A stretch of DNA of 64,000 nt from Terracidiphilus sp. (GTDB lineage: Bacteria; Acidobacteriota; Terriglobia; Terriglobales; Acidobacteriaceae), in the NCBI GenBank assembly GCA_049517515.1, contig JBEKSA010000017.1:13090-77089 (forward strand), given 5' to 3'. Of this stretch, positions 9,759-46,209 are shown in pieces; position 1 is the stretch's first letter; each line of letters begins with the position of its first letter. The notes below the pieces were generated by a model. That model was not told the origin of the DNA and did not search any database. It saw nothing but the letters and a program-made list of their open reading frames with translations. A program made the position numbers and the translations under genes.

Positions 9759-10886
9759 TTGAGCGGCGAGCACGAAAGGGTCCTTGTCCTGAACCCCGGA
9801 ACGACGTCGACGAAGTTCGGCGTTTATACGCGCGCGGGCGAAGAGATGGCGCGCAACATTCACCACGGAGACGAGGAAATCGAGAGGTTTCGCGGGAGGC
9901 CGATGCTGGACCGGCTGGAGTACCGCGCGGGGCGGATCGAGGCGGCGCTCAAAGAGGCAGGATACGGCGAGAGCGGGAGGGGCGCGGAGCCCTGGGCTGC
10001 GGTGGCCGGCCGGGGCGGACTGCTGCCGCCGATGGAGTGCGGGACGTATCTCGTGGACGACACGATGGTGGAGGAATTGCGGCGGGCGCGACGCGGAGAA
10101 CATGCGTCGAACCTGGGCGCGGTTCTGGCGTTGCGGTTTGCAGCGGCGGCCGGCGTGGAGGCGTACATTGTGGATCCGGTGACGGCGGATGAGTGGCAGG
10201 AGTGCGCAAGGCGCTCGGGCTCGCCGCTGGTGAAGCGGTCGTTCGTGGGGCACGCGCTGAACACCAAGGCTGTGGCTCGGCGCCATGCTCGCGGGCTGGG
10301 GCGCCGCTACGAGGAGATGCGGCTGATCGTGGTGCACATGGGCAGCGGAATTACGGTGACGGCACACCGCGGCGGGCGCATGATCGACAGCAATTCCATC
10401 GAGGAGGGCCCGTTCGGCCCGGACCGCACGGGATCGCTGCCGGTGCGCGAGCTGATCAAGCTGTGCTTTAGCGGATCGATGACGGAAAAGGAGCTCGACC
10501 GGCACGTCTTCGGCGACGGTGGACTGTTCGCGTATCTCGGAACGCGCGACCTCATGGAGGTGGAGCGGAGAATCGACGCGGGCGACGCGCAGGCGGCGGC
10601 GGTCTTCGAGGCCATGGTCTACCAGATCGGCAAGGAGACGGGCGCGATGGCCGCGGTGCTCGAAGGCAAAGTGGATGCGGTGTTGGTTACCGGCGGCATG
10701 GTGCACTCAGAGCGGCTAGTGGCGCGGCTGCGCGGGTCTGTGGAATGGATCGCGCCGGTGGCTGTGTATCCCGGGGAGGACGAGCTGCGGGCGCTGGCCG
10801 AGGGCGTGTTCCGCGTGCTGGACGGAGAGGGAGAAGCCAAGCGGATGAAAAGGCAGGGAGTAAGGAGTAGGACCAGGGATCAGTGA
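9759..10886 (+). CDS. buk: Butyrate kinase
   Basis: LNPGTTSTK, GRGGLL, GEHASNLG, HALNTKAVAR, VVHMGSGIT and YPGEDEL motifs. Confidence 0.93.
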   Translation: MSGEHERVLVLNPGTTSTKFGVYTRAGEEMARNIHHGDEEIERFRGRPMLDRLEYRAGRIEAALKEAGYGESGRGAEPWAAVAGRGGLLPPMECGTYLVDDTMVEELRRARRGEHASNLGAVLALRFAAAAGVEAYIVDPVTADEWQECARRSGSPLVKRSFVGHALNTKAVARRHARGLGRRYEEMRLIVVHMGSGITVTAHRGGRMIDSNSIEEGPFGPDRTGSLPVRELIKLCFSGSMTEKELDRHVFGDGGLFAYLGTRDLMEVERRIDAGDAQAAAVFEAMVYQIGKETGAMAAVLEGKVDAVLVTGGMVHSERLVARLRGSVEWIAPVAVYPGEDELRALAEGVFRVLDGEGEAKRMKRQGVRSRTRDQ

Positions 10887-11051
10887 AGAGTGAATCGTGA
10901 AATACGGGCAGTGGAAAAGTGAAGAAGTGAGCGGCTACCGGCTACAAGCTGGAATCTAAAGCTAAAAAAGATGACACCCGACACCTGACGCCTGGCAACT
11001 GAACCCTGCATTAGAATTCGATAGAGAATCGGGAGACGGCGAGGGACAGAG

Positions 11052-11918
11052 TTGGCGGTTCTGGCGGTGCAGCAGATCCGGCGCATGCGGGGCGGAGCGC
11101 AGGGCCAGTTGATGCTGGGCGCAGACGGGCACGTCTACGTGGTGAAGTTCCAGAACAACCCGCAGCATACGCGGGTTCTGGCCAACGAGTTGATGGCCTC
11201 GCGGCTGGCGGCGGCGGCGGGGCTGACGGTGCCCGAGACTGATCTGGTGGAAGTTTCGAGCTGGCTGATTGAGAATACGCCGGAGCTGGAGATCGACATA
11301 GGGCGGACGCGGGCGCGCTGCCAGGCGGGACTGCAGTTCGGGTCGCGCTTCGCCGGAGGCATGATGCCGGGCCAGGTGGTTGACTACCTGACCGAAGAGC
11401 AACTGGCCGAGTTGAAGAACCCGGGCGAGTTCGCCGGCGTCCTGGCTCTGGATAAGTGGACCGGCAATGCCAACGGGCGGCAGGCGGTGTTCACGCGGCG
11501 GCAGCGGGAGAAGCGCTATAGGGCTGTTTTCATCGACTTCGGGTACTGCTTTCACGCCGGGGAGTGGCGCTTTGAAGATGCTCCGCTGCGCGGCGTGTAT
11601 TACCGCAACGATGTGTACCGGGAGATCACGGGATGGGAGTCGTTTGAGCCCTGGCTGACGAGACTTGAAACCATGGCGGCGGAGACGGTGTGGGAGGCGG
11701 CCAACGAGGTTCCCCCCGAATGGTATGGCGGCGATCAGAGTGAAATGGAAGCACTGGTCGAAAAGCTGCTCAAGCGGCGGAGCCGGATCCGGGAGCTGAT
11801 TGAGGCGTTTGGGAACTCGGATAGGAGGCCGTTTCCGAAATGGGGAGCGGGGGGGATGGAAAGTGAGAAGAGGTCTTGGAGAGCGGCCCGATGGGGAGAT
11901 ACGATGAGGGTGAATTGA
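11052..11918 (+). CDS. HipA-like (HipA_2/PI3-4-kinase-like fold) kinase
   Basis: RRMRGGAQ Gly loop, YVVKF, ANELMASRLA, LDKWTGNANGRQ and FIDFGYCF motifs. Confidence 0.85.
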   Translation: MAVLAVQQIRRMRGGAQGQLMLGADGHVYVVKFQNNPQHTRVLANELMASRLAAAAGLTVPETDLVEVSSWLIENTPELEIDIGRTRARCQAGLQFGSRFAGGMMPGQVVDYLTEEQLAELKNPGEFAGVLALDKWTGNANGRQAVFTRRQREKRYRAVFIDFGYCFHAGEWRFEDAPLRGVYYRNDVYREITGWESFEPWLTRLETMAAETVWEAANEVPPEWYGGDQSEMEALVEKLLKRRSRIRELIEAFGNSDRRPFPKWGAGGMESEKRSWRAARWGDTMRVN

Positions 11919-11927
11919 GGACAGAAC

Positions 11928-12112
11928 TTAGTTTTTAGCTGTTAACCTTTAGCTCTTTCCGTTCGCGCGAAGACGGCAGAGGCTTTAATGGTGGAGGACA
12001 ACGGCACGGAGTTTCGGACTGCATAGCCGGGGCTAAGAGCTAAAAGCTAAGGGCTAAGAGCCCGAGGCTGCCAGCTACGGGCTGCGGGCTATGAACTACG
12101 AACTGCGAACTT
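11928..12112. repeat. Inverted AGCT-core heptamer repeat blocks plus further heptamers
   Basis: ttagtttttagctgttaacctttagctcttt paired with gctaagagctaaaagctaagggctaagagc; then gctacgg/gctgcgg/gctatga/actacga/actgcga. Confidence 0.75.
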
Positions 12113-12121
12113 GAAGAAGCG

Positions 12122-12997
12122 ATGACGAGCCAAAGCCAGCGGCGTGGGTGCGAGTTTCAACTGCTTCGGTATGTGCCGGACGCAGTGCGGAACGAGTATG
12201 TGCACATCGGCGTGATCTTGCGCGAGTCCGCCACGGCGGACAACCCTGGAAGGGTTGAGGTGCGCTTCACGCGCGACTGGCGGCGGGTGAGGTGCCTCGA
12301 TCCCCACGCCGATACGGCGCTGCTCGAAGGGATGGAAGGCGAGCTGCGGCGGCAGCTCCAGGAGCGAACGGACCTGGAGGAAACAGACCTTGAGGCGGCG
12401 GGAGGGCGCCTGATGCGGATCCTCGAGGAATCGCTCTCGCTGAACGTGCAGATGACTGAGCCCAAGGCCTACCTGGCCGAAAGCGTTCCCGCGGGAATGG
12501 AAGAGCTGATGCGGATCTACGTCGAGCCCCCGCCGCGGGAGCGGAGCCCGAGGCTCAGCGGACGGGCGGCGATCCAGTCGCGCATGCGCTCGGAGTTCGA
12601 ACATGCCGGTGTGTGGGATCTTTTGAGAAAGAGAATCGCCGCCTCGGAGTACACGCGGCCGGGCGATCCGCTGCGGATCGACGTGGGCTACCGGCCCAAC
12701 GGGGTGGTGCGGATGTTCCAGGCGGTGAGCCTCGATCCGGGGCTGGAGACGGCCAAGGTGCTGGCCTTTTCGGCAGCCGCGCTCCGCGTCGGCGTAGAGC
12801 GAGTGGAGAAAGCCGAGCTTGAGTTGACGGCCGTGATCGAGCCAGCGGCGCGGGTGGGAGCGACCGAAGAGGAGCCGGAACGGCTGGAGCTCTACCGCTT
12901 CGGAGTGGAGACGATGGAAGAGCACCGGATTCGGGTGCTGACCACCTCCGACATGGGCCGCGTAGCCGAGACGGCGCGGCGCGAGCTGCACGTGTAA
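12122..12997 (+). CDS. DUF3037 domain protein (usual partner of HipA_2 kinases)
   Basis: CEFQLLRYVPDAVRNEYVHIGVIL N-terminal signature; C-terminal IDVGYRPNG restriction-endonuclease-like region. Confidence 0.85.
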   Translation: MTSQSQRRGCEFQLLRYVPDAVRNEYVHIGVILRESATADNPGRVEVRFTRDWRRVRCLDPHADTALLEGMEGELRRQLQERTDLEETDLEAAGGRLMRILEESLSLNVQMTEPKAYLAESVPAGMEELMRIYVEPPPRERSPRLSGRAAIQSRMRSEFEHAGVWDLLRKRIAASEYTRPGDPLRIDVGYRPNGVVRMFQAVSLDPGLETAKVLAFSAAALRVGVERVEKAELELTAVIEPAARVGATEEEPERLELYRFGVETMEEHRIRVLTTSDMGRVAETARRELHV

Positions 12998-13198
12998 AGA
13001 GCTGGAGCCCGAAAACTGGGGTGCGGCTCGCGATCCAGTCGAGACTCTAAGTCTATTTTTAAGAACGCGTAAGGGGATGGTCACTGGGCCCGAAAATATT
13101 TTTTCTGAAGTTTGCCGATAATTTCCGGGCTTCGCGGTAGGATCAATCCGGTTGATGGATTTCAGGGGTATCGCGGCCGTTGCCGGGAGCGATTGAGT

Positions 13199-13231
13199 CA
13201 GGATTGGCTCAGGATTTGCTCCGGACTTGCT
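13199..13231 (+). promoter_or_regulatory. Three tandem 11-bp direct repeats upstream of the portal gene
   Basis: CAGGATTGGCT CAGGATTTGCT CCGGACTTGCT seen directly; regulatory role inferred. Confidence 0.5.
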
Positions 13232-13265
13232 CCAGGCGGACGGCTGACGAAACCCTGATCCCTCG

Positions 13266-13302
13266 AAAAAGGCATGGCCATGGGCCGTGCCTTTTTGTTT
13301 TT
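13266..13302 (+). terminator. Intrinsic terminator immediately upstream of the portal RBS
   Basis: Stem GGCATGGCC/GGCCGTGCC (one G-U pair), 3-nt loop, then TTTTTGTTTTT. Confidence 0.85.
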
Positions 13303-13310
13303 GAAGGAAG

Positions 13311-14612
13311 GTGCGCGTGAAGGTAGGCGAGCAATTACGGGAGATGTGGCGGCAGGCCCGCCGCGGCAGGCAGGCCGGGAATGGTGAGCGGTCCCGGCAG
13401 GTGGACCTCGATGCGGAGGTGGGGGCGGAGGCGGAGCGGAAGACGCTTGCGCTTCCCGCGATCCTGAGCCCGGTGCAATTTCCGGGCAAGCATCTGCCCA
13501 AGCCGACGCCGATGAACCTGCGCCGGTTTGCGGAGACACCGGTGGTGCGGCGGGCGATCAACGTGATCAAGGACCGCATCGCGGCGATGGACTGGCAGAT
13601 TCGGGTGCGACGCGGCGTGCAGCCCAACGACGTGGCGTTTGCGGCGCGCAAGCTGCGGGCGCTACGGTGCGCGCTGGAGGAGCCGAATCCGTCCGACAGC
13701 TTCCGCACCTTGGTGGAGCAGGTGATCGAAGATGCGCTGACCGGCGGCTTTGGAGCCATCGAGATGGAGCCGACGGGCGACCCGGAGCGGCCGGCGATGC
13801 TGTGGCCGGTGGATGGGGCCTCGATCCGCATCAACGCCAGGTGGGACGGCGGCGAGGATACGCCGCGCTACGCGCAGGCCATGCCGGGACAACTGGAGTC
13901 GGGCGCCGTGGAGCTGCTCGACCGGCAGTTGATGTACATCCGGATGAACCCGCGCAGCTTTACTCCCTTCGGGCTGGGGCCGCTGGAAGTGGCCTTTGAG
14001 ACGGTGAACCAGTTCCTGAGCGCGCACCGCTTTGCCGGCAAGCTGGCGGCGAACTCGGTGGCGCAGTATGCACTCTGGCTGAACGAAGCCACGCCCGCGC
14101 AGCACGACCGGCTAATCCGCTGGTGGCAGGGCGAGATCGAAGGCACGGGGCGCGTGCCGCTGATCTCGACCGAGCAGAAGCCGGAGGTGCTGCGCTTCGC
14201 GCAGGGAACGGACGCGGACCTGAGGCTGGCATGGCAGGAGTTCCTGATCCGGATGGTGGCCAACGCCTTCGGGCTGCCGCCGCTGATGCTGGGTCTGGAG
14301 GCGGACGTGAACCAGTCGACGGCCTCGGAGATGGCCGACGAGGCCTTCCGCGGCGCGATCTCGCCGCTGGCCATGCTGGTGGCCGGGCACATCACGCGCG
14401 ATCTGTTCGCCAAGTGCATCGGCTGGCGGGAGTTTGAGTTTGTCTTCAACGAGCTGAGCGCGCGGGACGAGGAGACAGAGCTGCAGGTGCAAGTGCAACT
14501 GCTGCAGGCCGGCGTGCTCACGATCGACGAGGTACGGGCGATGCGGGGACTGGCTCCGCTGGGGCAGACTCCGGAGGCGTTGCTGTCGGGCGAAGCGGAA
14601 AACAGAGACTAA
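13311..14612 (+). CDS. Phage portal protein (HK97-like); start may be GTG at 13317
   Basis: TPVVRRAINVIKDRIAAMDW, DALTGGFG, LWPVDG, FGLGPLE, IRMVANAFGLPPLML and GVLTIDEVRAMRGL motifs. Confidence 0.92.
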   Translation: MRVKVGEQLREMWRQARRGRQAGNGERSRQVDLDAEVGAEAERKTLALPAILSPVQFPGKHLPKPTPMNLRRFAETPVVRRAINVIKDRIAAMDWQIRVRRGVQPNDVAFAARKLRALRCALEEPNPSDSFRTLVEQVIEDALTGGFGAIEMEPTGDPERPAMLWPVDGASIRINARWDGGEDTPRYAQAMPGQLESGAVELLDRQLMYIRMNPRSFTPFGLGPLEVAFETVNQFLSAHRFAGKLAANSVAQYALWLNEATPAQHDRLIRWWQGEIEGTGRVPLISTEQKPEVLRFAQGTDADLRLAWQEFLIRMVANAFGLPPLMLGLEADVNQSTASEMADEAFRGAISPLAMLVAGHITRDLFAKCIGWREFEFVFNELSARDEETELQVQVQLLQAGVLTIDEVRAMRGLAPLGQTPEALLSGEAENRD

Positions 14613-14682: not shown

Positions 14683-15183
14683 ATGCGATTGGAAGCGATG
14701 GCGGTAAAGATTCCTCATGTGGACAAGCATCCCAACCGGGTGCCATTTGAGGGCGTGTTGACGGTAGTGAACGCGGCCAGCGATCGAGCGCCGGCCGGAG
14801 CGCGCGGGCACCGCGTGATGCTGACGCGCGAGGCGGCGGAGAAGGCGCTGCCTTCGCTGCTGGGCATGGCTGTGGATTACAGACCCGGATGGGACGGCCA
14901 CGATGCGCGTCGCAAGATCGGCCTGCTGACCGAGGCCGATGTGATCGGGCCGCGGCTGGTGGTGCGAGGGTACCTCTACGCGCGCGATTTTCCCGATGTG
15001 GCGCAGGCGATCACGGCGCACGCTCTCGAAACGCTGGGCATGAGCTACGAACTGGCCGATGCGCGCGTGGAGGATATGCGGGCGGAGATCTGGAAGCTGA
15101 CGCGGGTGACCTTTACCGGAGCGGCGATTCTGCTGCGGGACAAGGCAGCTTACCGGGCGACAAGCTTCAGGATGGCGAGTTAG
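14683..15183 (+). CDS. Prohead (maturation) protease-like protein
   Basis: Position after the portal; His (WDGHD) and Ser (LGMSYE) in HK97/assemblin-type spacing; C-terminal FTGAAIL...AY. Confidence 0.65.
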   Translation: MRLEAMAVKIPHVDKHPNRVPFEGVLTVVNAASDRAPAGARGHRVMLTREAAEKALPSLLGMAVDYRPGWDGHDARRKIGLLTEADVIGPRLVVRGYLYARDFPDVAQAITAHALETLGMSYELADARVEDMRAEIWKLTRVTFTGAAILLRDKAAYRATSFRMAS

Positions 15184-15190
15184 CGAAAGA

Positions 15191-15290
15191 CAGCGGAGTT
15201 AGCGGAGCCAGCGGAGTTGGCGGAGTTAGCCAAGGGGAAAAGCCAGACGGCCAACAAGTAAGTTAGCGAGTTAGTCAATCAGTGAGTAAG
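15191..15290. repeat. 9-mer x4 (YAGCGGAGT-like) and 8-mer tandem repeats
   Basis: CAGCGGAGT TAGCGGAGC CAGCGGAGT TGGCGGAGT, then aagtaagt tagcgagt tagtcaat cagtgagt. Confidence 0.75.
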
Positions 15291-15300
15291 AGAGCGAACA

Positions 15301-15331
15301 AAGAGGCTCCGGGAACGGAGCCTTTTTGTTT
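15301..15331 (+). terminator. Intrinsic terminator between the protease and scaffold genes
   Basis: GGCTCCG/CGGAGCC stem, GGAA tetraloop, then TTTTTGTTT. Confidence 0.85.
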
Positions 15332-15381
15332 CTCAGTGAACCGCCGCAGTGAGCAATTCGCAAAAACAGGAAAGGAAAAAC

Positions 15382-15780
15382 ATGGAACAAGGAGAAGAGA
15401 ACATCGTGGAGCGGCTGGAAGCCGCAACCACCGCGCTGGAAAAGACGCTCAGTTGGCTGGAACAACGGCAGGGTGAGCTTTCCGGCGAGGTGGAGAGGAT
15501 CTCGGCGACTGTGGAACAAAGCCGCCGCGAAACCGAACTGGCGGAGAAGCTTGCCGCCGTGGAGCGCGAGTTGGCCGAGGTGAAAGCGGCGTCGACGCAG
15601 AACGCACTGAACCCGCTGCGCCGCACCATGCCCGCAGCAACGGCCGAGATGCTGGCCAAGCATGGCATCGGCGATGGGCCGGTGGATGTGCGCTCGCTGG
15701 ATGCGGCGTTGTCCGGACTGAGCCTGGAGCAGCGCATTGCAGTCAAAACGCAACTGCTGCGGGCCGGCGCAATCTCGTAA
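15382..15780 (+). CDS. Capsid scaffold-like coiled-coil protein
   Basis: GGAAAGGA RBS; Glu-rich heptad helix; position between protease and capsid. Confidence 0.6.
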   Translation: MEQGEENIVERLEAATTALEKTLSWLEQRQGELSGEVERISATVEQSRRETELAEKLAAVERELAEVKAASTQNALNPLRRTMPAATAEMLAKHGIGDGPVDVRSLDAALSGLSLEQRIAVKTQLLRAGAIS

Positions 15781-15784
15781 AGGC

Positions 15785-15965
15785 AGCTTCTAGCTTTTAG
15801 CTATTAGCTCTTAGCTACGAGCTTGTTGAGCGCACAGGGTAGCCGACAGACGAAACGCGATGGAAGTGAAAGATCGCGGACCGCGCGCCGGCGAATGATC
15901 AATCATCAACGCCAGATCAGGCACGAACAAGCTGGCAGCTAGGAGCTAGAAGCTAGCAGCTAAGC
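15785..15965. repeat. Inverted AGCTNNN heptamer blocks enclosing about 100 nt
   Basis: Six AGCT units at 15785-15827 are in register with the reverse complement of five AGCT units at 15926-15965. Confidence 0.85.
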
Positions 15966-15995
15966 ACGGCCCCATGGAGGGGGTGGAGAGAATCT

Positions 15996-16964
15996 ATGAA
16001 CGCAACCTTTGCAGATATTCATGCGGCAGCGGACTACATCGGGCCGGGCGCTATCGAAGTTCCGCTGTACCAGACGGAGATCTTCGACATTTGCCGGCGG
16101 TCAAGTTCATTTGGACAGCGCATCAGGCAGGTTCCGGCGACCGGGCATCCGTCGCGTTTCTTTGAGGAGACGGCGATTCCCAATCCGGGGACAGCGGGCT
16201 TCGTGAATCCGCGCAGCATCAATCCCACGGTGGTGAGCCCGACGCGCATTGAGCTGAGCGTGCCGCTGAAAGCGGTTGTGGCACAGATCAACTACAACCT
16301 CTTCGACATCGAGCTGGGCGACCAGCAGAAGCAGTTCGCCTATCTGCAGGCCAAGGATCTTGTGGATACGGTGAGCGGCGTGATGGTGGCGCACGACGTG
16401 GCGCTGTGGAACGGCAACGACACCAGCCTGAGCGCGCCTACGACCACGCAGTACATGGGCTGCGCGGCGCAGATCGCGGCCGGAGGCAACTCGGTGACCG
16501 TGACCACCTCGATGAAGATTGTGGACACGATCAAGACCACGGTGGCGCAGATGGTGGCCAACAACGGCTACCATGTGCGTCCCACGGCGGTCTATGCCAA
16601 CCCGGTGCTGCTGGACCTGATCGACCAGGAGATGAAATCCGAGTACAACGTGGTGCTGAACACCGACCAGATCACCGGCGGCTTCCGCGTGAAGATGCTT
16701 TCGACGCAGGCCGGCGACCTGCCGTTGATTCCGGATTGGAGCCTGAGTTACACGGGCACGCCGGGAAGCGGCAATGCCGTGCTTCCGGCCTACATCGTGA
16801 CTGAGGATCTGATCGAGTATCACTGGCTGGGCGATCCCACTCCGCGCGTCTTCCAGCTCGGCTTGCCGAACTCGCTGACCCACCAGTATGTGGCAGTCAA
16901 GTTCGGCGCTCCGGTGGTGAAGGGCGCAAACTTCGCCCACTATCAGGTGCTGGTCGACCGGTAG
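15996..16964 (+). CDS. Major capsid protein (HK97-fold-like)
   Basis: 322 aa after the scaffold; ends in a typical MCP-like pattern (V.FG..VV.G..F.H..V); followed by neck genes. Confidence 0.72.
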   Translation: MNATFADIHAAADYIGPGAIEVPLYQTEIFDICRRSSSFGQRIRQVPATGHPSRFFEETAIPNPGTAGFVNPRSINPTVVSPTRIELSVPLKAVVAQINYNLFDIELGDQQKQFAYLQAKDLVDTVSGVMVAHDVALWNGNDTSLSAPTTTQYMGCAAQIAAGGNSVTVTTSMKIVDTIKTTVAQMVANNGYHVRPTAVYANPVLLDLIDQEMKSEYNVVLNTDQITGGFRVKMLSTQAGDLPLIPDWSLSYTGTPGSGNAVLPAYIVTEDLIEYHWLGDPTPRVFQLGLPNSLTHQYVAVKFGAPVVKGANFAHYQVLVDR

Positions 16965-16967
16965 GGA

Positions 16968-17100
16968 AAACAGTTCATGGTTAGCAGTTCATGGTTTGCA
17001 GCTCACGGCCGCCGGAAAGAACACCGGCAGCCGTGAGGCGCGGGCTGAGGACTGCGAACCAGGAACTCTGACTCAAGAATTCTGAACCAGGAACTGGAAA
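16968..17100. repeat. Degenerate inverted tandem repeats (CAGTTCATGGTT / GAACCAGGAACT)
   Basis: Seen directly in the capsid-adaptor spacer. Confidence 0.6.
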
Positions 17101-17114
17101 CGGAAGGATGCGCG

Positions 17115-17738
17115 ATGGCATATCTCGAGCCAGCGGATTACACGAACTATGGATTGCCGGCCGGGACCACGGCAGACTGGATCACGGCCGCGACGGCCCT
17201 GATCAACAGTTACTGCAGGCGGCCCGATCTGAATGTGATTCAGTATACGGAGCGCCTGCGCGTAACGGCTGGGGCGCAGACGGTGCGGCTGAGCTATCTG
17301 CCGCTGGCGCCGCTGGCGCCGGCGACGACGCCGATGGTGAGCCTCGAAGGACGGTACGCGAGGCCAAGACGCGGGGAGATTCCGCAGGAGCCGCTCATCG
17401 AGATCGCATGGGCGTTTGCGTTGCCCGGGCAATGGACGTCGATCGATGCCACGCTTGTGGACTTCGATCCCAACACCGGGGAGCTGACGCTGCCGTGGAA
17501 TGTTCTGGGGCTGCCGTTCAACGAAGTGCAAGCGACTTACACGGCGGGCCTAGCGACCATCGGCGACGACGTGAAGTCAGCGTGTGCGCAGATTGTGCGC
17601 AATGCGCAGGCAACGCCAGCGCTGAACGCGAGCATGAGCAGGATCGACACGATGCAAATCAAGTATTTCTCAAGTTCGCTGATCGACGAGACGGTGCAGG
17701 CGTGGCTGAATCCGTACGTTGCGAACAGGCTGGGGTGA
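17115..17738 (+). CDS. Head-tail adaptor (gp6/gp15-like)
   Basis: AATALINSYCRR N-helix, beta insertion, then VQATYTAGLATIGDDVKSACAQIV. Confidence 0.75.
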   Translation: MAYLEPADYTNYGLPAGTTADWITAATALINSYCRRPDLNVIQYTERLRVTAGAQTVRLSYLPLAPLAPATTPMVSLEGRYARPRRGEIPQEPLIEIAWAFALPGQWTSIDATLVDFDPNTGELTLPWNVLGLPFNEVQATYTAGLATIGDDVKSACAQIVRNAQATPALNASMSRIDTMQIKYFSSSLIDETVQAWLNPYVANRLG

Positions 17739-17741
17739 GCG

Positions 17742-18176
17742 ATGAGCGATACGGCGCCGCGTAACCCGCGGGGCGCGCCGCAGATGCTGGCCGACGCGCT
17801 GCTGCGCAGCGCATCGGGTACGACGGCCCTTCTGCGCGTGACAGGCACGAATACGGATACGAGCATGTCGGAGGTCGGCCTGGTAGCGACCACCTTCGCC
17901 GATGTTCCGGTAAGCCCGGTGCTGATGCGCAAGCTGCGGCCGCAATGGCAGGAAGGTGGCGAATCGAAGTGGGAGCTGCTGGTGTCGGCCACGAGTGTGG
18001 AGCAGCAGATCAACACGCTCGATTTGCCGTCGGCACAGTCTCTGTTCGCCATGACTTTGGCGGTTACCGTGGCCGGGCAAGACTATCTGATTGAGTCGAT
18101 CGCTTCCAATGAGGCGTTTGGCCAGGTGTATCTCTACCGGCTGCTTTTGCGCGAGGCGCGGCAGCAGGCGGTGTAA
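17742..18176 (+). CDS. Head closure/stopper-like protein
   Basis: Size (144 aa), beta-rich pattern and position after the adaptor; no diagnostic motif. Confidence 0.5.
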   Translation: MSDTAPRNPRGAPQMLADALLRSASGTTALLRVTGTNTDTSMSEVGLVATTFADVPVSPVLMRKLRPQWQEGGESKWELLVSATSVEQQINTLDLPSAQSLFAMTLAVTVAGQDYLIESIASNEAFGQVYLYRLLLREARQQAV

Positions 18177-18193
18177 CCGCGCGAGGGGCATCC

Positions 18194-18679
18194 ATGCAGA
18201 ATGCGAAAGATTCTTTTTATATGGCGTTGCGCACGCGGCTTACCGAGATCAATCCGCAGCGGACGATCCTGGTGCGGGGTACCGTAAGGCCGGGAATCCT
18301 GGTGGAGGAAGCAGAGGCTCCGTTCAGCCAGTTCCCTAGCGACGTGTTTGTGTTGCGCTGGCTGGGCCTGGCTGTTGACATGGACCTGGCATCAACGATG
18401 ACAGGGGAGCAATGCGAAATCGTCTACCAGACGTGCGGCACACAGAGCTTCGGCGGGCTGGATCGCGGCCGAGCTTTGAGCACGATGGACGAGGAATTAA
18501 TGGCGATGATTCAGCCTTTCTACACACCGAAGCTGAATTACGCCGCCACGCCGCCAGCCGCCATGCTGACGCAGGTTTTCTGGGATGAGCCGGTGTTCTC
18601 GCCCATCGTTACCCAGCGCGACCGGCTGAGCCGCAGCGCGACAGTGTTGGTTTACAGCTACCAGGAGCAGGGGGAGTAA
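18194..18679 (+). CDS. Tail terminator/completion-like protein
   Basis: N-terminal helix (KDSFYMALRTRL), 161 aa, immediately before the tube gene; called on synteny. Confidence 0.5.
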   Translation: MQNAKDSFYMALRTRLTEINPQRTILVRGTVRPGILVEEAEAPFSQFPSDVFVLRWLGLAVDMDLASTMTGEQCEIVYQTCGTQSFGGLDRGRALSTMDEELMAMIQPFYTPKLNYAATPPAAMLTQVFWDEPVFSPIVTQRDRLSRSATVLVYSYQEQGE

Positions 18680-19654
18680 ATGGCCGCAACTTGGTTTTCC
18701 GCTCCGGCGCCGGTGTCGCGACGGGTGCGGGCTTTCTTTGCGCCGGTGAATCGCGCGGCGCAGACGCCCGTTCTTTTCGATCCGTCGGAACAGGGCTGGT
18801 TTAGTCTTGATGCCCCACCGGCACCGTGGATCAGCCTAGGATGGGTGCAGGATTTTGTGCGCAAGACGGCGAGTAAGTCAGCGGCGCTGATGACCGGAAT
18901 TCCCGCAGCGCCCCTCGAACAGGTGCGCGAGACCCTCGAAGCGCAAGTAAGTCTTCAATTTCTAAGTTGGACGAAGCTGACGATGGGTCTGGCTACCGGC
19001 TCGCAACATATGAACATCCTTGCGCCGGCGATTGGCGCGGCTCCTGCAGCTGATGGAGCACAAGCATCGCCCGCAGTGACACCGCAGAGCGGTTCGACGA
19101 GCACGTCGATTCTGCTGGCGCTTACGGACGCGGCCAAATTCACACCCGGCGCGATCGTCGCTGTCGACGCGGATTACAACGGGCAGACCGGCTATGTGGG
19201 CACTCCGGTAGCCGGCGCGTACGTGCGCCAGGTGCTCACGGATGTGGACTACGTGCGGCGCGTAACGTTCAATGTCGCGCTTGTATCGCAAGTGACCGCG
19301 ACCGGGCTGAATCTGGCCGAGCCGTTGCCGGGCGGCGCCCCTGCAACGGGCGCCAAGGTGCAGGCAGTGACCGGATTTGTCGATCGAGAAGGCGGAAGCT
19401 TTTACCAGGAGTGGTCAGGGCTCTTTGTGATGGAAGGCAGCCAGGGAGAGAGAATCTTTTTCCACTATCCAAGACTGCAAGCTATGACCGGAGCGGAGGA
19501 GGCTGTTTCGCCGCTCAATCAAAAGAATCAAGGTGGACATTCGCGTGTACTACTCAAGGGGCAGTTTCTGGCATTGCCGGTGATGGACCCATTGGATGGA
19601 GAACGCGTGGTATGTTACCGGAGCTTTCTACCGGCGGCCAACGCGCTGGTATAA
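18680..19654 (+). CDS. Major tail tube-like protein with inserted domain
   Basis: WISLGWV...EAQVSLQFL..LTMGLATG and RIFFHYPRL...F.ALP.DP patterns of non-contractile tube proteins; called on synteny. Confidence 0.55.
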   Translation: MAATWFSAPAPVSRRVRAFFAPVNRAAQTPVLFDPSEQGWFSLDAPPAPWISLGWVQDFVRKTASKSAALMTGIPAAPLEQVRETLEAQVSLQFLSWTKLTMGLATGSQHMNILAPAIGAAPAADGAQASPAVTPQSGSTSTSILLALTDAAKFTPGAIVAVDADYNGQTGYVGTPVAGAYVRQVLTDVDYVRRVTFNVALVSQVTATGLNLAEPLPGGAPATGAKVQAVTGFVDREGGSFYQEWSGLFVMEGSQGERIFFHYPRLQAMTGAEEAVSPLNQKNQGGHSRVLLKGQFLALPVMDPLDGERVVCYRSFLPAANALV

Positions 19655-19694
19655 CACGCACTAGAGAATCCGAGTTACCAGACAGAGAGTTGCG

Positions 19695-22011
19695 ATGAAG
19701 ATACAAATCCAGAGGCAGGATTACACGGCTGCGTTCGACTCCGGTCGTCCATTAACCATCGAGCGCAAGCTGAATGCACCGTCGGTCTGCGAGTTATGGT
19801 TGAGCCTACCGGCCAATGGCAGTCTTGCGGCGCCGGCGCGCTTTCAATCTGTTTCGGTGACCGGGGATGACGGGACAACTTACTTCACGGGCTATATCAC
19901 TGCAAGTCCCTTGCCAGAGTATGCGGGAATTGGCCTTGAAGGGCCGCGCTACCGGCTAGCAATTCAGGCTGTGAGCGATGAGATTCTGCTGGACCAGGTG
20001 CTGATGCCGCCCAGCGCCGGATTGGCCGAAGAGGATGCGGGGACGTTGCTTGCTGCCCTTGTGGCTCACACTGGATCGACATCCCTTTCGGCGCGGACGT
20101 CTTCACTGAACACTCTTGTGGGGAACTTTACTCCGGAGCCGGGAGCAAATTGGAGCAAAAGCGCCGGAGAGGCCGCTGGCATGGCCCGGGCGGCATATCG
20201 CGCACAGAGCGGCGCAATCACGCTGTCCGCGGTACAGACAACCGTTCATCCCCTGAATGAGACCGATGGGAGCCTGAACCTGGGTAACCTGGCTCTGACA
20301 GCAAGCGTTAAGCGCGCGCTGGCCAACGATGTGACCGTTTGCGGCGAGAATGAGCCGGCAGCCTATGTTACGGAGTACTTCCTCGGCGACGGAGCAACAA
20401 CGCAGTTCAATCTGGCAGCCGACCCATACTTTCCCGCGACTTCAAAATCCACAATTATCAGCGAGCTCTTTAACGAGCCACAAATCAACGAGACGGTGTG
20501 GGAATTTTCCGAGGGAACGGGCTACCTTACGATCGGCCCCGGCGGCCTGGCGATGAACGGCGGCAACGGGATCGACGGGCAGACGTTGCTGACATGGATC
20601 GATCCCATCGAAATGGGTGGAACTCTGCTGTTTGAGGCGGTGGGAGTGAAACTGTCTCCGGGCAGCACGGGCATCGTGGCGGGATTCTTTACCAGTCTGC
20701 TGACAGCGGCGAATTGCACCGCAGGTTTTCAGGCCACGGCGCAACAAGGCACCGGAGCCGTGACGCTGCAGCCAGTCGTGGAGGGCACTCCCGCGGGAAT
20801 CACGTTTGCGTTGAATCCAGCCAACCAATACACTGTCCGTGTCCGCATACACTGTCCGGAGTGTAATCGCGCGCAAGCAATGTATTATTCCTTTGGAGAT
20901 CAGGGGCTCATCGGCGCCGGCGGTGAATGGGCCATCGCTTCTGGAAAGATCCAGATGGAGATACAAGAATTTGTCAACGGCGTCGGCGCAACTCCTGTCA
21001 CACTGTATGACGCGGCTGTTGCCTATCTTCCTGGCTCCTGCCTGGTGGTGCCGGCCAGCAGCATCAATTTAATCGGAACGATTCGCGCCGTAAGCCTGAC
21101 GAACTTAGGGTCAGGTTGGGTAGTAAGTACCCCGCCGGCTGGCGGAGCGTACACGCGAAGGGTAGGCACAACCGCCGAAGCCGCGGAGTGTCATCTGGAG
21201 CGCACCGGCAAGGTCACGTTCTACACCGGATGCACGCCGGTTGCAGGTGAACAGATTGCAGTGAGTTACCGCACGGTTGGGCGGGCCGTAGGCCGCGCGG
21301 TAAACTCCACCAGCCAGCAGGCGCTGGCACAAGCCGGCTCACCGACTGTGGCCGCCTGGATCGGCTCGGTCACTCGTCCCCCCGGCACGCTGCTCCGCGG
21401 ATTGCCGCAATGCCGCGCTGGTGATGGAGCAGGCTGCAGCCAGCGTGAGCGCGCTTTGGAGTGGAACGTACAAAGGGAACCGGACGAGCTTTTCAGCGGA
21501 TGTTTGGCCAGGCGACGCGCTGCTGCTTGACGCGCCTTCGACAAATCTAAATGCGGAAGTCGTAGTGCGCACAGTTAAAGTAACTTACAGCGCCAGTTAC
21601 CCGGACTTAGTGGCTTATGAGATCGCCTTTGCCAATGACTGGGCAGATGACTTAGCCATCAAGACAAGCGCCGCGGTGCCAGCGGACACTTGGTTGCCGG
21701 CTCCCATTGCCCCTACAGTACTGGCCAATCTTGCCTGTCTCACGGTGGCCGCGATGAACGGGAGCACGGTGACGGTGAATACGGGAGTGACACCGCCAAG
21801 CGGCGGCGGGTTCGAGATTCGGTTGCGCGATTTTGCTTTCATGCCCGGCGAGGATCCGACGCTGGTGATCCGCGGCTCGCAGCCGAATCTTACGTTTTCG
21901 CGCATTTCGGCGAGCGATCGGTTCTACATTCGGATGTTCGATGGTTCGACGCCACCAAATTACTCGGAATTTTCGACGGCGCTGTTCATCAATCTGCCGT
22001 TGAGTTCTTGA
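19695..22011 (+). CDS. Tail hub/tip-like protein, split by a +1 frameshift at the C6 run 21378-21383 (about 771 aa if restored)
   Basis: Hub-like N-terminus (TIERKLNAPS, YFTGYI, RLAIQAVS); frame 19695 runs into GC-biased nonsense after VTRP, while the +1 frame continues PARCSADCRNAALVMEQ into DVWPGDALLLD. Confidence 0.65.
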
Positions 22012-22061
22012 ACGGAAGAGCGAGCAAAAATGAGGTACTCAACGGAGTCCGGTGGATGCGA

Positions 22062-22283
22062 ATGATGAATGATTTCGAGGCCCAGGTACTGAGCGATCTA
22101 AGCGTGCTGAAATCGCAGATGACCGGATTGATGGGCGACGGCAACGGCGGGCGGCTGGCGGAACTGGAGCGGCGCATGGAGCGCCACGAGCAGAACTGGC
22201 AGCGCGCCAGGGGATTTCTTGCGGCCTTGAGCGTACTGTTCGCAGTGATCGAAGTGGCTGTTGAGGCGTGGCACCGACACTAG
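22062..22283 (+). CDS. Holin/XhlA-like small membrane protein
   Basis: Coiled coil (GRLAELERRMERHE) plus one C-terminal TM helix; last gene of the cassette. Confidence 0.55.
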   Translation: MMNDFEAQVLSDLSVLKSQMTGLMGDGNGGRLAELERRMERHEQNWQRARGFLAALSVLFAVIEVAVEAWHRH

Positions 22284-23987: not shown

Positions 23988-24520
23988 CGGTTGAGCCGAT
24001 AGAGAACGTGGCGCCGCAGCGGATGGCCTTCCGGCAAGGATGGGTGGTCGAACTCGTCATTGGAATCGTGCGTCATGCCGATCTTCTCCATCACGCGGCG
24101 AGAGCGCAGGTTTTCAGGAACCGTGAATGAAACGAGACTGTCGAGGCTGAGTTCGCCGAACGCGTAATGGACGGCGGCGCGTGCGCCTTCAGTCGCTAAT
24201 CCCCGACCCCAGCAATCAAATGCGAGCCGCCAACCGACCTCAACCGCGGGCATGAAGGGCGCGTCGAAATTTGGAATGGACAGACCGATGAAACCGATGA
24301 AGGCTTGATTCTCAAGCAGCTCGGCAGCGGACGGTCCATAGCCGTGGCGGTCGAAGTGAGCCTGAGCGCGGTCGACGAGCGCGTCGGACTCCGCGGCTGA
24401 CAGGAGCGAGGGCAGGAATTCCATCACGCGCGGATCGGCGTTCATGGCTTGGAAGGGTGGGCGGTCGGAGTCGCGCCAGGGGCGGAGGAGAAGGCGGTCA
24501 GTTTGCAGGAATTTTCGCAT
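23984..24520 (-). CDS. GNAT N-acetyltransferase (RimJ/RimL-like)
   Basis: TDRLLLRPW, VEVGWRL, WGRGLATEGA and NLRSRRVMEKIGM motifs. Confidence 0.9.
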   Translation of the reverse strand: MRKFLQTDRLLLRPWRDSDRPPFQAMNADPRVMEFLPSLLSAAESDALVDRAQAHFDRHGYGPSAAELLENQAFIGFIGLSIPNFDAPFMPAVEVGWRLAFDCWGRGLATEGARAAVHYAFGELSLDSLVSFTVPENLRSRRVMEKIGMTHDSNDEFDHPSLPEGHPLRRHVLYRLNR

Positions 24521-24676
24521 TGAAGCGCAGCCAAATTCAAAAAAAGGAAAGCGCAACTTCAGGGGTTAAAACCCCATGTTTTTGCTGCCTTTTCGCCCGG
24601 CCAAGGCCGCGCCCTTGTTGCAACGCTGATTTTTGAAACGGCTTCAGGCAAGATCCGTGGCGAGCCTAAGGCCGAA

Positions 24677-26506
<1,830 letters not shown>

Positions 26507-44711: not shown

Positions 44712-44973
44712 AAACCGCTCCTTCCATCCTGATGGTACAGAATCCACTTGGCCCGCTGTCGCACGCCAAACGCAATCCTGATGTTGCGCCGGCCAGAGGC
44801 TCCTTCGCCGGCGCAAAAAAACGGCGGCAAGGGAATGCCCCCTGCCGCCACCAGATTCCTTTGTCAACGGGATTTAACCTTTGCGTTGAGCACTCGTGTT
44901 TCTGCCGCGCCCAGGTCGTACGGTCGATGGCTCTCGATCAGCGGCCGGACCGCATCCGCTGCCCACCGCGCCG

Positions 44974-45660
44974 TTATTGGTTCACGCCCGCTCCCTGGGC
45001 CGTTCCCGGCGCCGGTGCTGGAGCCGGTGCTGCCTGCGGAGCCGCGTCCGGTGGCTGAGGCGGTTGCGGATGACGGAACTGCCCACCCGGCCCGCGGAAC
45101 TGGCTGCCCGGTCCGCCCATCCCTGGCCTCTGTCCATCGTGTCCCCACGGACCCCGGTCACGTTCGCGCATCCCGTCGTGCTGCATCCGGTTCTGGTGCA
45201 TAGTCTGCAGTTGCTTCCACTGGTCCGGCTTCAGCTGCATCCGAATGTCCAGAAGGAAACGCGCATTCGCTTTTTCCAGATCAGCGCGCGCGCCCACGAC
45301 TTTGTCGATCTGCGCTTCAATCGCGGCACGGTCCGGAGTATCGGCCTTCATCAGCGGCCCCATCTCCAACTCAGCTTTGCGCAAAGTGGCTTGCATGTCG
45401 ATCAGCTTCATGCGATGGTCCTGCAGAATTCCATCCATCGCCTTGCGCTGATCGTCACTCAGGGTCAACTGCTTCACGATGTCCGGATTGTTCCAGAACT
45501 GCCCATTCGCAAATCCGAACGCGCGTTCCATCGGAGGCCGATGCTGCCCGAATCCAGGACCCATGCCTGGCCCGCCGGGTCCTTGCGCGCACGCCCAACC
45601 TCCTGCGATCAATATTCCCGCTCCCGCCAAAATCAGTCGAACAATTTTCAACGTCTTCAT
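44974..45660 (-). CDS. Spy/CpxP/ZraP-like periplasmic protein
   Basis: Signal peptide, LTLSDDQ and QLKPDQW repeats, Gly/Pro-rich ends. Confidence 0.8.
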   Translation of the reverse strand: MKTLKIVRLILAGAGILIAGGWACAQGPGGPGMGPGFGQHRPPMERAFGFANGQFWNNPDIVKQLTLSDDQRKAMDGILQDHRMKLIDMQATLRKAELEMGPLMKADTPDRAAIEAQIDKVVGARADLEKANARFLLDIRMQLKPDQWKQLQTMHQNRMQHDGMRERDRGPWGHDGQRPGMGGPGSQFRGPGGQFRHPQPPQPPDAAPQAAPAPAPAPGTAQGAGVNQ

Positions 45661-45741
45661 CGATTTTTCCCTCCCCCTGTGTCCCAAGGGACCCTTTCCT
45701 GCCTTCTGATGAGTTTCCTCTTGCCTTGTTTTGTGAGTAAT

Positions 45742-46209
45742 TCAATTTGTACCGTTGCTGTCCATCATTTGCGCCAGCGGCTCCATGGCCGCCGGAACCT
45801 GCCGCGATACATCGCTGTCTACCGTTGCCAGCAGATCCTCATTTTCACTGGCTGCCCTCTTTACCGCGGTTGGTTGCCGCTTGGAAACGATTGTGGCCTT
45901 GACAGGCTTTTCGGGCGCTGCATGCACCAGCGCGGCTTTTTGCTCCGCCGCTTTCAACGCCGCGATGCGAGCCTGCTCCTGCCGGTGATGGCGTTCGTAC
46001 AATCCGCCCGCCAGGCTTCCGGCCGCCAGCATGCATCCCAGCGCCCAGCTCGCTGCCAGGCGCCAGTTGTGTCGCGCCGTGGTCACCACTGTCCGCGGCC
46101 GGTTGTACGCCGCCTCGCTCCAGGCATCCACGCTCGCCTTGAAGTTCTCCAGCGCCCCCGCCACCATCGGATCGTCGATCTCTCCCGCCAATTTGTCTCT
46201 CCAACTCAT
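45742..46209 (-). CDS. Putative anti-sigma factor (single TM)
   Basis: ATGA overlap with the ECF sigma stop; central TM; C-terminal DEDLLATVD..VSR.VP.AMEPL. Confidence 0.7.
   Translation of the reverse strand: MSWRDKLAGEIDDPMVAGALENFKASVDAWSEAAYNRPRTVVTTARHNWRLAASWALGCMLAAGSLAGGLYERHHRQEQARIAALKAAEQKAALVHAAPEKPVKATIVSKRQPTAVKRAASENEDLLATVDSDVSRQVPAAMEPLAQMMDSNGTN

What the first reader, a model, noticed from the sequence alone, without database searches (positions are those of the whole stretch)
12998..14612. No terminase where one is expected
Seen: only 313 nt of non-coding DNA separates DUF3037 from the portal, and no ORF in the window shows a terminase-like ATPase/nuclease pattern. Known: terS/terL almost always precede the portal in tailed phages and in RcGTA. 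Portal, adaptor and stopper are nevertheless retained. Inference: either the motor is encoded elsewhere (split-locus GTA), or the particle is not filled by a classical motor.
Basis: partly seen in the sequence, partly recalled or inferred. Interest (0 to 1): 0.65.

Follow-up and report, generated by a model that had tools for sequence, protein, structure and literature searches.

The report
Packaging motor gene moved elsewhere
The phage-like particle gene set in this soil Acidobacteriaceae genome really has no DNA-packaging motor gene beside it, but the cause is an old chromosome rearrangement that moved a still-intact, hard-to-recognise terminase gene to a distant site, not a particle that works without a motor.

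Summary
The 313-nt DUF3037-portal spacer is real. No terminase is found anywhere in the 64-kb window by Pfam, by tblastn, or by a terminase family profile run on all six frames. It is not an assembly break: full-depth unitigs from four independent peat metagenomes span the junctions.

- In about 30 related Terracidiphilus/Acidobacteriaceae genomes, a conserved ~515-aa gene lies two genes upstream of the portal. The order is small basic ORF, giant ORF, terL, hipA2, DUF3037, portal.
- That gene is a genuine T4-gp17-type large terminase. PHROG phrog_2 gives 7e-28, the family profile against PDB gp17 gives 2e-46, and the AF2 model (pLDDT 94) matches gp17 and HK97 TerL. Pfam and NCBIfam miss it.
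- The window belongs to a large clade where this left arm has been separated from the cassette. In one genome of that clade, terL and the portal cassette lie about 590 kb apart on the same contig.
- All six terL genes of that subclade that I examined sit next to rpmE-dus, with no portal nearby.
- Both arms are under purifying selection (dN/dS about 0.07-0.10).
- In eight metagenomes, a terL variant matches the window organism's depth (r=0.99).

Verdict: a split-locus domesticated phage-like element.

The parts
12998..13310 (.). 313-nt non-coding spacer between DUF3037 and the portal. It is a normal, conserved feature of the element (220-760 nt in relatives, including those with terL) and holds no terminase remnant.
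   Evidence: Spanned by full-depth unitigs.
13311..14612 (+). HK97-type portal gene (431-433 aa). It is the first gene of the conserved right arm of the element.
   Evidence: PF04860 E=4e-53. phrog_2662 E=7e-40. More than 5000 homologues, the top 120 at 83-100% identity. At least 519 species genomes carry a relative. dN/dS 0.097 in the window's clade.
14683..22283 (+). The remaining nine or ten co-oriented right-arm ORFs (166, 132, 322, 207, 144, 161, 324, 771 and 75 aa; the 771-aa ORF is split 611+196 here). They are followed by purE/purK. They are presumed head, neck and tail genes, but their functions were not verified.
   Evidence: Same order in all relatives. dN/dS 0.07-0.10. No family hits. 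The AF2 model of the 322-aa protein failed (pLDDT 29).
11052..12997 (+). HipA_2 kinase (11052-11918) plus DUF3037 protein (12122-12997). In the ancestral layout this pair lies between terL and the portal. It resembles the HipA-like/DUF3037 anti-phage pair DS-6/HipAD. It is absent from the portal locus in clade C.
   Evidence: PMC13092281. dN/dS 0.12-0.13.
10887..11011 (.). Interval that holds the rearrangement breakpoint. Upstream is a host butyrate/acetate-kinase-like gene (9759-10886). Homology to the terL-hipA2 spacer of terL-linked relatives begins only 40-60 nt before the hipA2 start.
   Evidence: blastn of the window against type-B loci. The junction is spanned by full-depth, error-free unitigs in four runs.

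Best explanation
The window carries the right arm (hipA2, DUF3037, portal and about ten structural ORFs, ending at purE) of a phage-derived particle gene cluster. Terracidiphilus and other Acidobacteriaceae inherit this cluster vertically at a fixed chromosomal site. In the ancestral layout, a left arm lies directly upstream of hipA2. It consists of a small basic ORF, a 2000-2500-aa giant ORF and a T4-gp17-like large terminase. At the base of the clade that includes the window, one chromosomal rearrangement cut between terL and hipA2. Its geometry fits a single inversion of about 590 kb. The left arm now lies next to rpmE-dus, far from the portal. Both arms stay intact under purifying selection. 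The particle is therefore most likely still filled by a classical TerL ATPase/nuclease motor supplied in trans from the second locus, as in multi-locus gene transfer agents. Shown here: the absence of terL from the window; the terL-linked layout in relatives; the identity of TerL; the split on one contig of a clade member; and selection on both arms. Inferred: that the window's own genome keeps the terL arm (from co-abundance); that the rearrangement was an inversion; and that particles are made and package DNA.
For: TerL is absent from the window but present in relatives.
- Thirty-eight fetched loci contain TerL. These are the type-B portal loci and the orphan loci. No clade-A or clade-C portal locus has it within 10 kb either side, and the window has none.

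The gene is a genuine TerL.
- phrog_2 'terminase large subunit' E=7e-28.
- The family profile hits T4 gp17 at 2e-46, the RB49 nuclease domain at 4e-26 and P74-26/G20c TerL.
- The AF2 model has pLDDT 94. Foldseek's top hits are T4 gp17 at 8e-26, then T7, HK97, Sf6 and D6E TerL.
- The motifs KARQMGxTT, HCSE, ESTP, VDPAGGG..GDYSA, VERNNHG and HDDRVMA are at least 98% conserved in 207 sequences. K88, E189, E410 and D494 are invariant down to 30% identity.

The phylogeny supports one displacement event.
- The concatenated cassette tree puts the window in a 27-row clade (support 99) made up of the no-terL layouts A, A2 and D plus three loci whose upstream side is too short to classify.
- Type B lies on both sides of the midpoint root.

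The split is seen directly.
- TerL P0255 lies at 644,659-666,224 of contig_27731 (977,299 bp).
- The portal cassette of the same contig (L024, in the window's clade) lies at 57,300-78,595 on the opposite strand.
- Six of six examined TerLs of the P0255 subclade (99*) are orphans. Their layout is giant, terL, optionally imuA-imuB-dnaE2, then rpmE and dus.

Both arms are under selection.
- NG86 dN/dS for cassette genes is 0.07-0.10 in clade A against 0.06-0.09 in clade B. PurE is 0.09. Orphan terL is 0.095.

The window's own organism appears to have a terL.
- In eight peat or wetland runs, the dominant terL-like unitigs have 0.85-1.05 times the depth of the window's cassette unitigs (Pearson r=0.99).
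- Their loose ends match clade-A orphan loci best.
Against: TerL was therefore never read from the window's own assembly. The link rests on co-abundance in metagenomes that hold several Terracidiphilus populations. Logan unitigs cover only about 75% of the terL at 80% likeness or more, so its intactness in this organism is not shown. No small terminase was identified. The capsid protein could not be confirmed (pLDDT 29; no hits). The window's copy of the 771-aa gene carries a frameshift. Whether clade C keeps a terL was not tested. No particle, packaging or transfer data exist.
Confidence: 0.8

Rival explanations
1. The window's lineage has lost the terminase altogether. The cassette is then either a slowly decaying relic or makes particles that are not filled by an ATP-driven motor, for example empty or protein-carrying heads.
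For: No terL in 64 kb. The window's own genome could not be scanned. The 771-aa gene is frameshifted in the window. No TerS was found.
Against: Clade-A genomes keep an intact terL elsewhere, with dN/dS 0.095. Cassette genes in clade A are as constrained as purE. A terL variant tracks the window organism's depth across eight runs. An intact 771-aa allele exists in a contig with an identical portal (L001).
Confidence: 0.1
2. The distant terL, together with the giant ORF, belongs to a different element or has another function. The portal cassette is serviced by a helper phage's terminase, as in satellite elements.
For: TerL and the portal are unlinked in the window's clade. The hipA2-DUF3037 pair resembles a defence module of the kind mobile elements often carry.
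Against: In about 30 relatives the same small-ORF, giant, terL trio is contiguous and co-oriented with hipA2, DUF3037 and the portal. The TerL tree mirrors the cassette tree, with the orphans forming one clade next to L076. No integrase or att-like mobility was seen, and the chromosomal site beside purE is fixed in all relatives.
Confidence: 0.06
3. The apparent absence is an assembly or binning artefact: a chimeric junction upstream of hipA2.
For: The window comes from a metagenome assembly. One related contig (L002) looks mosaic.
Against: The buk-hipA2 junction is spanned by full-depth, error-free unitigs in four independent runs, with no alternative joints or loose ends. The same junction is seen in about 29 other species-level genomes, including long-read contigs over 1 Mb.
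Confidence: 0.02

Closest known systems
RcGTA-type gene transfer agents (Rhodobacter capsulatus, Caulobacter crescentus): host-owned, phage-derived head-tail clusters with accessory loci elsewhere in the chromosome
   Same: A structural-gene-only cluster beginning with packaging and portal genes. It is vertically inherited at a fixed site across many species and under purifying selection. No integrase or replication genes were seen nearby. Its genes are distributed over more than one locus in the window's clade.
   Different: In RcGTA (from my own knowledge) terS and terL sit in the main cluster directly before the portal, whereas here terL is the gene that became unlinked. This element carries a 2000-2500-aa ORF and a HipA-like kinase/DUF3037 pair between terL and the portal. 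No sequence relationship to RcGTA genes beyond shared Pfam families was tested. DNA packaging and transfer are unproven.
Bacteriophage T4 gp17 and other solved large terminases (HK97, Sf6, D6E, P74-26/G20c)
   Same: Two-domain architecture (ASCE ATPase plus RNase-H-like nuclease). Deviant Walker A of the gp17 'SRQLGKT' type (from my own knowledge). The family profile gives E=2e-46 to gp17, and Foldseek gives E=8e-26.
   Different: Only 10-20% identity to any solved TerL. Not recognised by the Pfam terminase models or NCBIfam. Encoded by a bacterial chromosome under host-like selection and, in one clade, hundreds of kb from the portal.
HipA-like kinase + DUF3037 two-gene anti-phage system (DS-6 / HipAD; PMC13092281)
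   Same: A HipA_2-family kinase followed by a DUF3037 protein, as at 11052-12997.
   Different: DS-6B combines DUF3037 with DUF1829, and only DUF3037 was detected here. Here the pair is embedded in a conserved particle gene cluster rather than a defence island. Defence activity was not tested.
Defective prophages and phage satellites (PICI, cf-PICI) that lack some packaging genes
   Same: A portal and structural genes without an adjacent terminase.
   Different: Those elements are mobile, patchily distributed and carry integrases. This cluster is fixed beside purE in hundreds of species, has housekeeping-like dN/dS, and survived being split by about 590 kb.

Membership tests
Large terminase subunit (TerL) | N-terminal ASCE ATPase with Walker A lysine, Walker B and catalytic glutamate | tested here: met
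   KARQMGxTT and HCSE are at least 98% conserved in 207 sequences. K88 and E189 are invariant in an alignment reaching 30% identity.
Large terminase subunit (TerL) | C-terminal RNase-H-like nuclease with conserved acidic residues | tested here: met
   VDPAGGG..GDYSA, VERNNHG and HDDRVMA are conserved. D355, E410 and D493/D494 are invariant or nearly so. TM 0.74-0.79 to the G20c and RB49 nuclease domains.
Large terminase subunit (TerL) | Significant sequence or fold similarity to experimentally characterised TerLs | tested here: met
   phrog_2 E=7e-28. Family profile against T4 gp17 E=2e-46. Foldseek against T4 gp17 8e-26 and HK97 TerL 8e-12, with model pLDDT 94.
Large terminase subunit (TerL) | Match to the curated Pfam or NCBIfam terminase models | tested here: not met
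   Pfam gives only a sub-threshold DUF3323 hit. There are no precomputed Pfam domains on any of about 240 homologues. The NCBIfam T7-type model scores 14.9 bits against a cut-off of 150. This is a gap in model sensitivity, not evidence against the fold.
Large terminase subunit (TerL) | ATP-driven DNA translocation and DNA cleavage activity | not testable with these tools
   Needs biochemistry or genetics.
Gene transfer agent / domesticated phage-like particle (viriform) | Phage structural cluster inherited vertically at a conserved chromosomal site across many species | tested here: met
   At least 519 species genomes carry a relative. Gene order is identical and purE lies downstream in all sufficiently long loci. 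The trees are congruent.
Gene transfer agent / domesticated phage-like particle (viriform) | Purifying selection comparable to host genes | tested here: met
   dN/dS 0.02-0.10 for cassette genes against 0.09 for purE and 0.14 for adenosine deaminase.
Gene transfer agent / domesticated phage-like particle (viriform) | No integration, replication or lysogeny module; the element cannot move as a unit | tested here: inconclusive
   No integrase or replication genes within 10 kb either side of either arm. The two arms are about 590 kb apart in one genome. Whole genomes were not scanned.
Gene transfer agent / domesticated phage-like particle (viriform) | Packaging motor gene present in the same genome | tested here: inconclusive
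   Met for clade member L024/L088, on the same contig.
Gene transfer agent / domesticated phage-like particle (viriform) | Particles package random host DNA and transfer it to recipients | not testable with these tools
   No experimental data. Only patchy, low-level transcripts were seen in metatranscriptomes.
Functional or defective prophage, or phage satellite | Integrase and att sites, with strain-variable presence | tested here: not met
   None were seen. The element is present at the same site in all relatives.

The most novel reading that the evidence does not exclude
Acidobacteriaceae, a dominant soil and peat family, own a family-wide, vertically inherited phage-derived particle system of the GTA or viriform kind. 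Its DNA-packaging motor is a Pfam-invisible gp17-like TerL. In a large clade the motor gene, together with a 2000-2500-aa partner protein, has been unlinked from the head-tail genes by hundreds of kb and yet co-maintained. That implies host-level trans-regulation of the two loci, and perhaps control by the embedded HipA-like kinase/DUF3037 pair.
Probability: 0.45. Interest if true: 0.8.

Novelty: new member of a known kind. Interest (0 to 1): 0.5.

Why it matters
The puzzle of a portal without a terminase has an ordinary structural answer: the cluster is split. That answer is informative in three ways.

1. A phage gene set that stays intact and under housekeeping-level constraint after its packaging gene is moved about 590 kb away cannot be a mobile prophage. 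This is some of the strongest sequence-only evidence that the Acidobacteriaceae element is host-owned and still used.
2. The terminase family is invisible to Pfam and NCBIfam. Published marker counts such as 'portal 1, terminase LSU not detected' in Terracidiphilus gabretensis and other subdivision-1 isolates (PMC5900883, Table 1) cannot be read as absence of a terminase if those portals belong to this element (not checked here). Terminase-based screens for GTAs or prophages would likewise under-call this element.
3. The work gives concrete genetic targets (terL, portal) for testing whether a major soil phylum has a gene-transfer-agent-like system.

Tried and rejected
I therefore could not show that the high-depth terL unitigs run on into rpmE-dus.

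**Leads that did not hold up**
- Pfam on all long window ORFs found no terminase. This alone proved weak evidence, because Pfam also misses the real TerL.
- I first took Eichorst 2018's 'terminase LSU not detected' counts as support for genome-wide absence. I dropped this once the TerL proved Pfam-invisible.
- A single-sequence phmmer of TerL against PDB found nothing. The family profile was needed.
- The 477-aa ORF at 44896-46329 was considered as a hidden TerL and rejected as junk.
- The butyrate/acetate-kinase-like gene upstream of hipA2 was considered as a possible non-canonical ATPase partner and rejected. It is a host gene, absent from types B and C.

**Searches that did not reach the window's own terL**
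- I tried to find it among ENA contigs of sister samples. This found further orphan loci, but none matched the dominant unitigs exactly.

**Failed or inconclusive analyses**
- The structure of the 322-aa putative capsid protein failed with the shallow alignment (pLDDT 29). The profile against PDB was empty.
- The small basic ORF and the giant ORF have no informative family hits. The only leads are phrog_460 at 5e-8 and a weak pectate-lyase hit.
- Literature searches found no description of this element.

Full report
**1. The observation**

The window (about 61% G+C) carries these co-oriented genes:
- a butyrate/acetate-kinase-like gene (9759-10886);
- a HipA_2 kinase (11052-11918);
- a DUF3037 protein (12122-12997);
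- a 313-nt spacer;
- an HK97-type portal (13311/13317-14612; PF04860 E=4e-53; phrog_2662 E=7e-40).

Nine or ten further ORFs without any Pfam, PHROG or NCBIfam hit follow, and then purE/purK.

No terminase is present in the window.
- Every other long ORF is an ordinary host gene: BipA, OprB porin, phosphoglucomutase, GGDEF, HemN, malic enzyme, Ser/Thr kinase, SSF and MFS transporters, histidine kinase, sigma-54 activator, SurA, S41 peptidase and others. The rest are antisense shadows of such genes.
- The only TerL-sized unassigned ORF (44896-46329) is an Arg/Ser/Pro-rich junk frame.
- tblastn with the relatives' TerL finds nothing at E<=10.
- A TerL family HMM run against all six-frame ORFs of 60 aa or more finds nothing at E<=10.

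The assembly is sound. In four independent peat metagenomes, error-free unitigs at the organism's full depth span the buk-hipA2 junction and the DUF3037-portal spacer. There are no alternative joints.

**2. What the relatives show**

The portal has more than 5000 database homologues, and the best 120 are 83-100% identical. A scan of one genome per species found relatives in at least 519 genomes. The best 80 are all Terracidiphilus or Acidobacteriaceae MAGs.

tblastn of the window's proteins against these loci shows that the order from the portal to the 75-aa ORF, followed by purE, is kept everywhere. The upstream side comes in three layouts:
- Type A is the window's layout, seen in 29 fetched loci plus about 10 close variants (counts include the window and a few duplicate contigs). 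Host genes (adenosine deaminase, permease, csd, with or without buk) run up to hipA2.
- Type B is seen in 28 of those loci, plus L086 and L087 fetched later. A conserved gene of about 515 aa lies directly upstream of hipA2, preceded by a 2000-2500-aa ORF and a small basic ORF.
- Type C is seen in 8 loci. A divergent S9 peptidase abuts the portal, and hipA2 and DUF3037 are missing.

Two earlier first-reader notes on other genomes mentioned a 'terL|kinase' junction. That prompted me to look upstream of hipA2 in relatives.

**3. The upstream gene is a large terminase**

Pfam reports only a sub-threshold DUF3323 hit. None of about 240 homologues has a precomputed Pfam domain. NCBIfam fails as well. 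Other evidence is clear:
- PHROGs gives phrog_2 'terminase large subunit' at E=7e-28, plus five further TerL families.
- A search of representatives at 50% identity found 9772 relatives.
- A profile built from 68 of them hits T4 gp17 at 2e-46, the RB49 gp17 nuclease domain at 4e-26, the gp17 ATPase domain at 3e-17, and the P74-26/G20c TerL domains.
- The AlphaFold model has mean pLDDT 94. Its best Foldseek matches are T4 gp17 (8e-26), then T7, HK97, Sf6 and D6E TerL.
- The motifs KARQMGxTT (a gp17-like deviant Walker A), HCSE (Walker B and catalytic Glu), ESTP, VDPAGGG..GDYSA, VERNNHG and HDDRVMA are at least 98% conserved in 207 sequences.

This is a classical packaging ATPase/nuclease.

**4. 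The split**

A tree of seven concatenated cassette proteins places the window inside a well-supported clade (27 rows, support 99). That clade is made up of the layouts without an adjacent terL (A, A2, D), plus three loci whose upstream side is too short to classify. Type C forms a second clade (support 100). Type B occupies both sides of the midpoint root. The terL-linked layout is therefore most simply ancestral, and the window's layout is derived once.

I searched with the TerL of L076, the type-B genome nearest to clades A and C. This returned P0255, which NCBI names 'terminase [Terracidiphilus sp.]'.
- P0255 is encoded at 644,659-666,224 of contig_27731 (977,299 bp).
- That is the same contig that carries the type-A portal cassette L024, at 57,300-78,595 on the opposite strand.
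- L024 lies in the window's clade.
- So in this genome the two arms are about 590 kb apart and divergently oriented. One inversion with an end between terL and hipA2 would produce exactly that; this is an inference from the coordinates.

In the TerL tree, P0255 belongs to a 10-member clade (99*) next to L076. I examined six of its members. All are orphans, with the layout small basic ORF, giant ORF, terL, optionally imuA-imuB-dnaE2, then rpmE and dus. None has a portal, hipA2 or DUF3037 within 10 kb.

In the window, homology to the type-B terL-hipA2 spacer starts only 40-60 nt before hipA2. This places the breakpoint between 10887 and about 11011.

**5. Are both arms still in use?**

Pairwise Nei-Gojobori dN/dS values:
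- cassette genes: 0.07-0.10 in clade A, 0.06-0.09 in clade B, 0.02-0.08 in clade C;
- purE: 0.09;
- adenosine deaminase: 0.14;
- terL: 0.147 when linked and 0.095 when orphan (three pairs).

Median dS is 0.5-1.6, so the split is old and both arms have been kept by selection since.

Metatranscriptome contigs cover the cassette patchily at low depth. The signal is strongest on the 322-aa ORF.

**6. The window's own organism**

The window's organism is abundant in many peat and wetland metagenomes.

In eight runs, the unitigs identical to the window's cassette have mean depths of 94, 64, 35, 46, 42, 10, 42 and 45. In the same runs, the dominant unitigs aligning at 82-86% to L076's terL and to the giant-ORF 3' end have depths of 90, 61, 32, 48, 44, 10, 35 and 39. 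The ratios are 0.85-1.05, with Pearson r=0.99. Other terL variants in these runs are 3-40 times rarer. The loose ends of the dominant unitigs match clade-A orphan loci best.

This makes it likely, though not proven, that the window's genome has its own giant-ORF/terL arm elsewhere.

**7. Interpretation**

The missing terminase is a positional effect of an ancient rearrangement, not a missing function. The alternative of no classical motor is not.

The 313-nt spacer is a normal feature that is also present where terL is linked.

The hipA2-DUF3037 pair sits between terL and the portal in the ancestral layout. It resembles the validated anti-phage pair DS-6/HipAD. It is absent from the portal locus in clade C, so adjacency to the portal is not essential.

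Still unknown:
- a small terminase subunit (the basic ORF upstream of the giant gene is only a candidate);
- the roles of the giant ORF (weak pectate-lyase and 'head closure' hits);
- the identity of the capsid protein (the model failed);
- whether particles are made and what they carry.

**8. Comparison and novelty**

The element behaves like a gene-transfer-agent-type domesticated phage cluster. It contains structural genes only, is inherited vertically, is under host-like constraint, and in one clade is spread over two loci.

It is not shown to be a GTA. It also differs from RcGTA in which gene is unlinked and in carrying the giant ORF and the kinase pair.

I found no paper describing it. 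Published marker counts of 'portal but no terminase' for subdivision-1 acidobacteria (PMC5900883) cannot be read as true absence if those portals belong to this element, because Pfam does not see this TerL; I did not check which portals they are.

For this particular finding, the result is a new member of a known kind, with an ordinary mechanism behind the apparent anomaly.

Noticed in passing
window 21372-21430 (C-run), ORFs 19695-21530 and 21421-22011: The 771-aa gene is split (611+196 aa) in the window and in L003. It is intact in L001, which has an identical portal. A metatranscriptome contig (X26) lacks one base at 21378, which would restore the frame. This could be polymorphism, phase variation or a homopolymer error.
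   Followed up: partly
L002 versus window, junction near window 15780-15996: Contig L002 is 100% identical to the window from adenosine deaminase to the 132-aa ORF, but only 78-92% identical from the 322-aa ORF to purK. It is either a recombinant strain or a chimeric metagenome contig. The switch falls in the repeat-rich spacer before the 322-aa gene.
   Followed up: no
window ~24000-26000: GC skew changes sign and cumulative skew peaks here, just downstream of the cassette and purEK. This suggests a replication-related strand switch close to the element.
   Followed up: no
L088 2216-9736, L087 3486-9968, L091 3211-9966, L092 2192-9865, L095 1847-9061: A 2000-2500-aa ORF with no Pfam domain always precedes terL, whether terL is linked or orphan, and a small Lys/Arg-rich ORF with a conserved 'LASEPEW' motif lies upstream of it. 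The only leads are weak: phrog_460 'head closure Hc2' at 5e-8 and a weak pectate-lyase-like hit. It could be a fibre, spike or cargo protein.
   Followed up: partly
L088 11788-17814, L093 11780-17560, L096 4134-10088: An imuA-like/imuB/dnaE2 mutagenesis cassette lies between the orphan terL and rpmE in some genomes of the clade (L088, L093/L094, L096) but not in others (L091, L092, L095).
   Followed up: no
window 11052-12997: The HipA_2 kinase plus DUF3037 pair matches the recently validated anti-phage system DS-6/HipAD in domain content. Here it is embedded between terL and the portal of a conserved particle cluster, with dN/dS 0.12-0.13.
   Followed up: partly
TerL family (P0124, P0255 and about 240 homologues): Pfam-A and NCBIfam do not detect this terminase family at all, whereas PHROGs and a family profile against PDB detect it strongly. 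Terminase-based screens of Acidobacteriota genomes will miss it.
   Followed up: yes
window 15996-16964: The 322-aa ORF, a capsid candidate by position only, is the most conserved cassette protein (85-99% identity; dN/dS 0.07) and has the strongest metatranscriptome signal. It has no detectable family and could not be modelled (pLDDT 29).
   Followed up: partly
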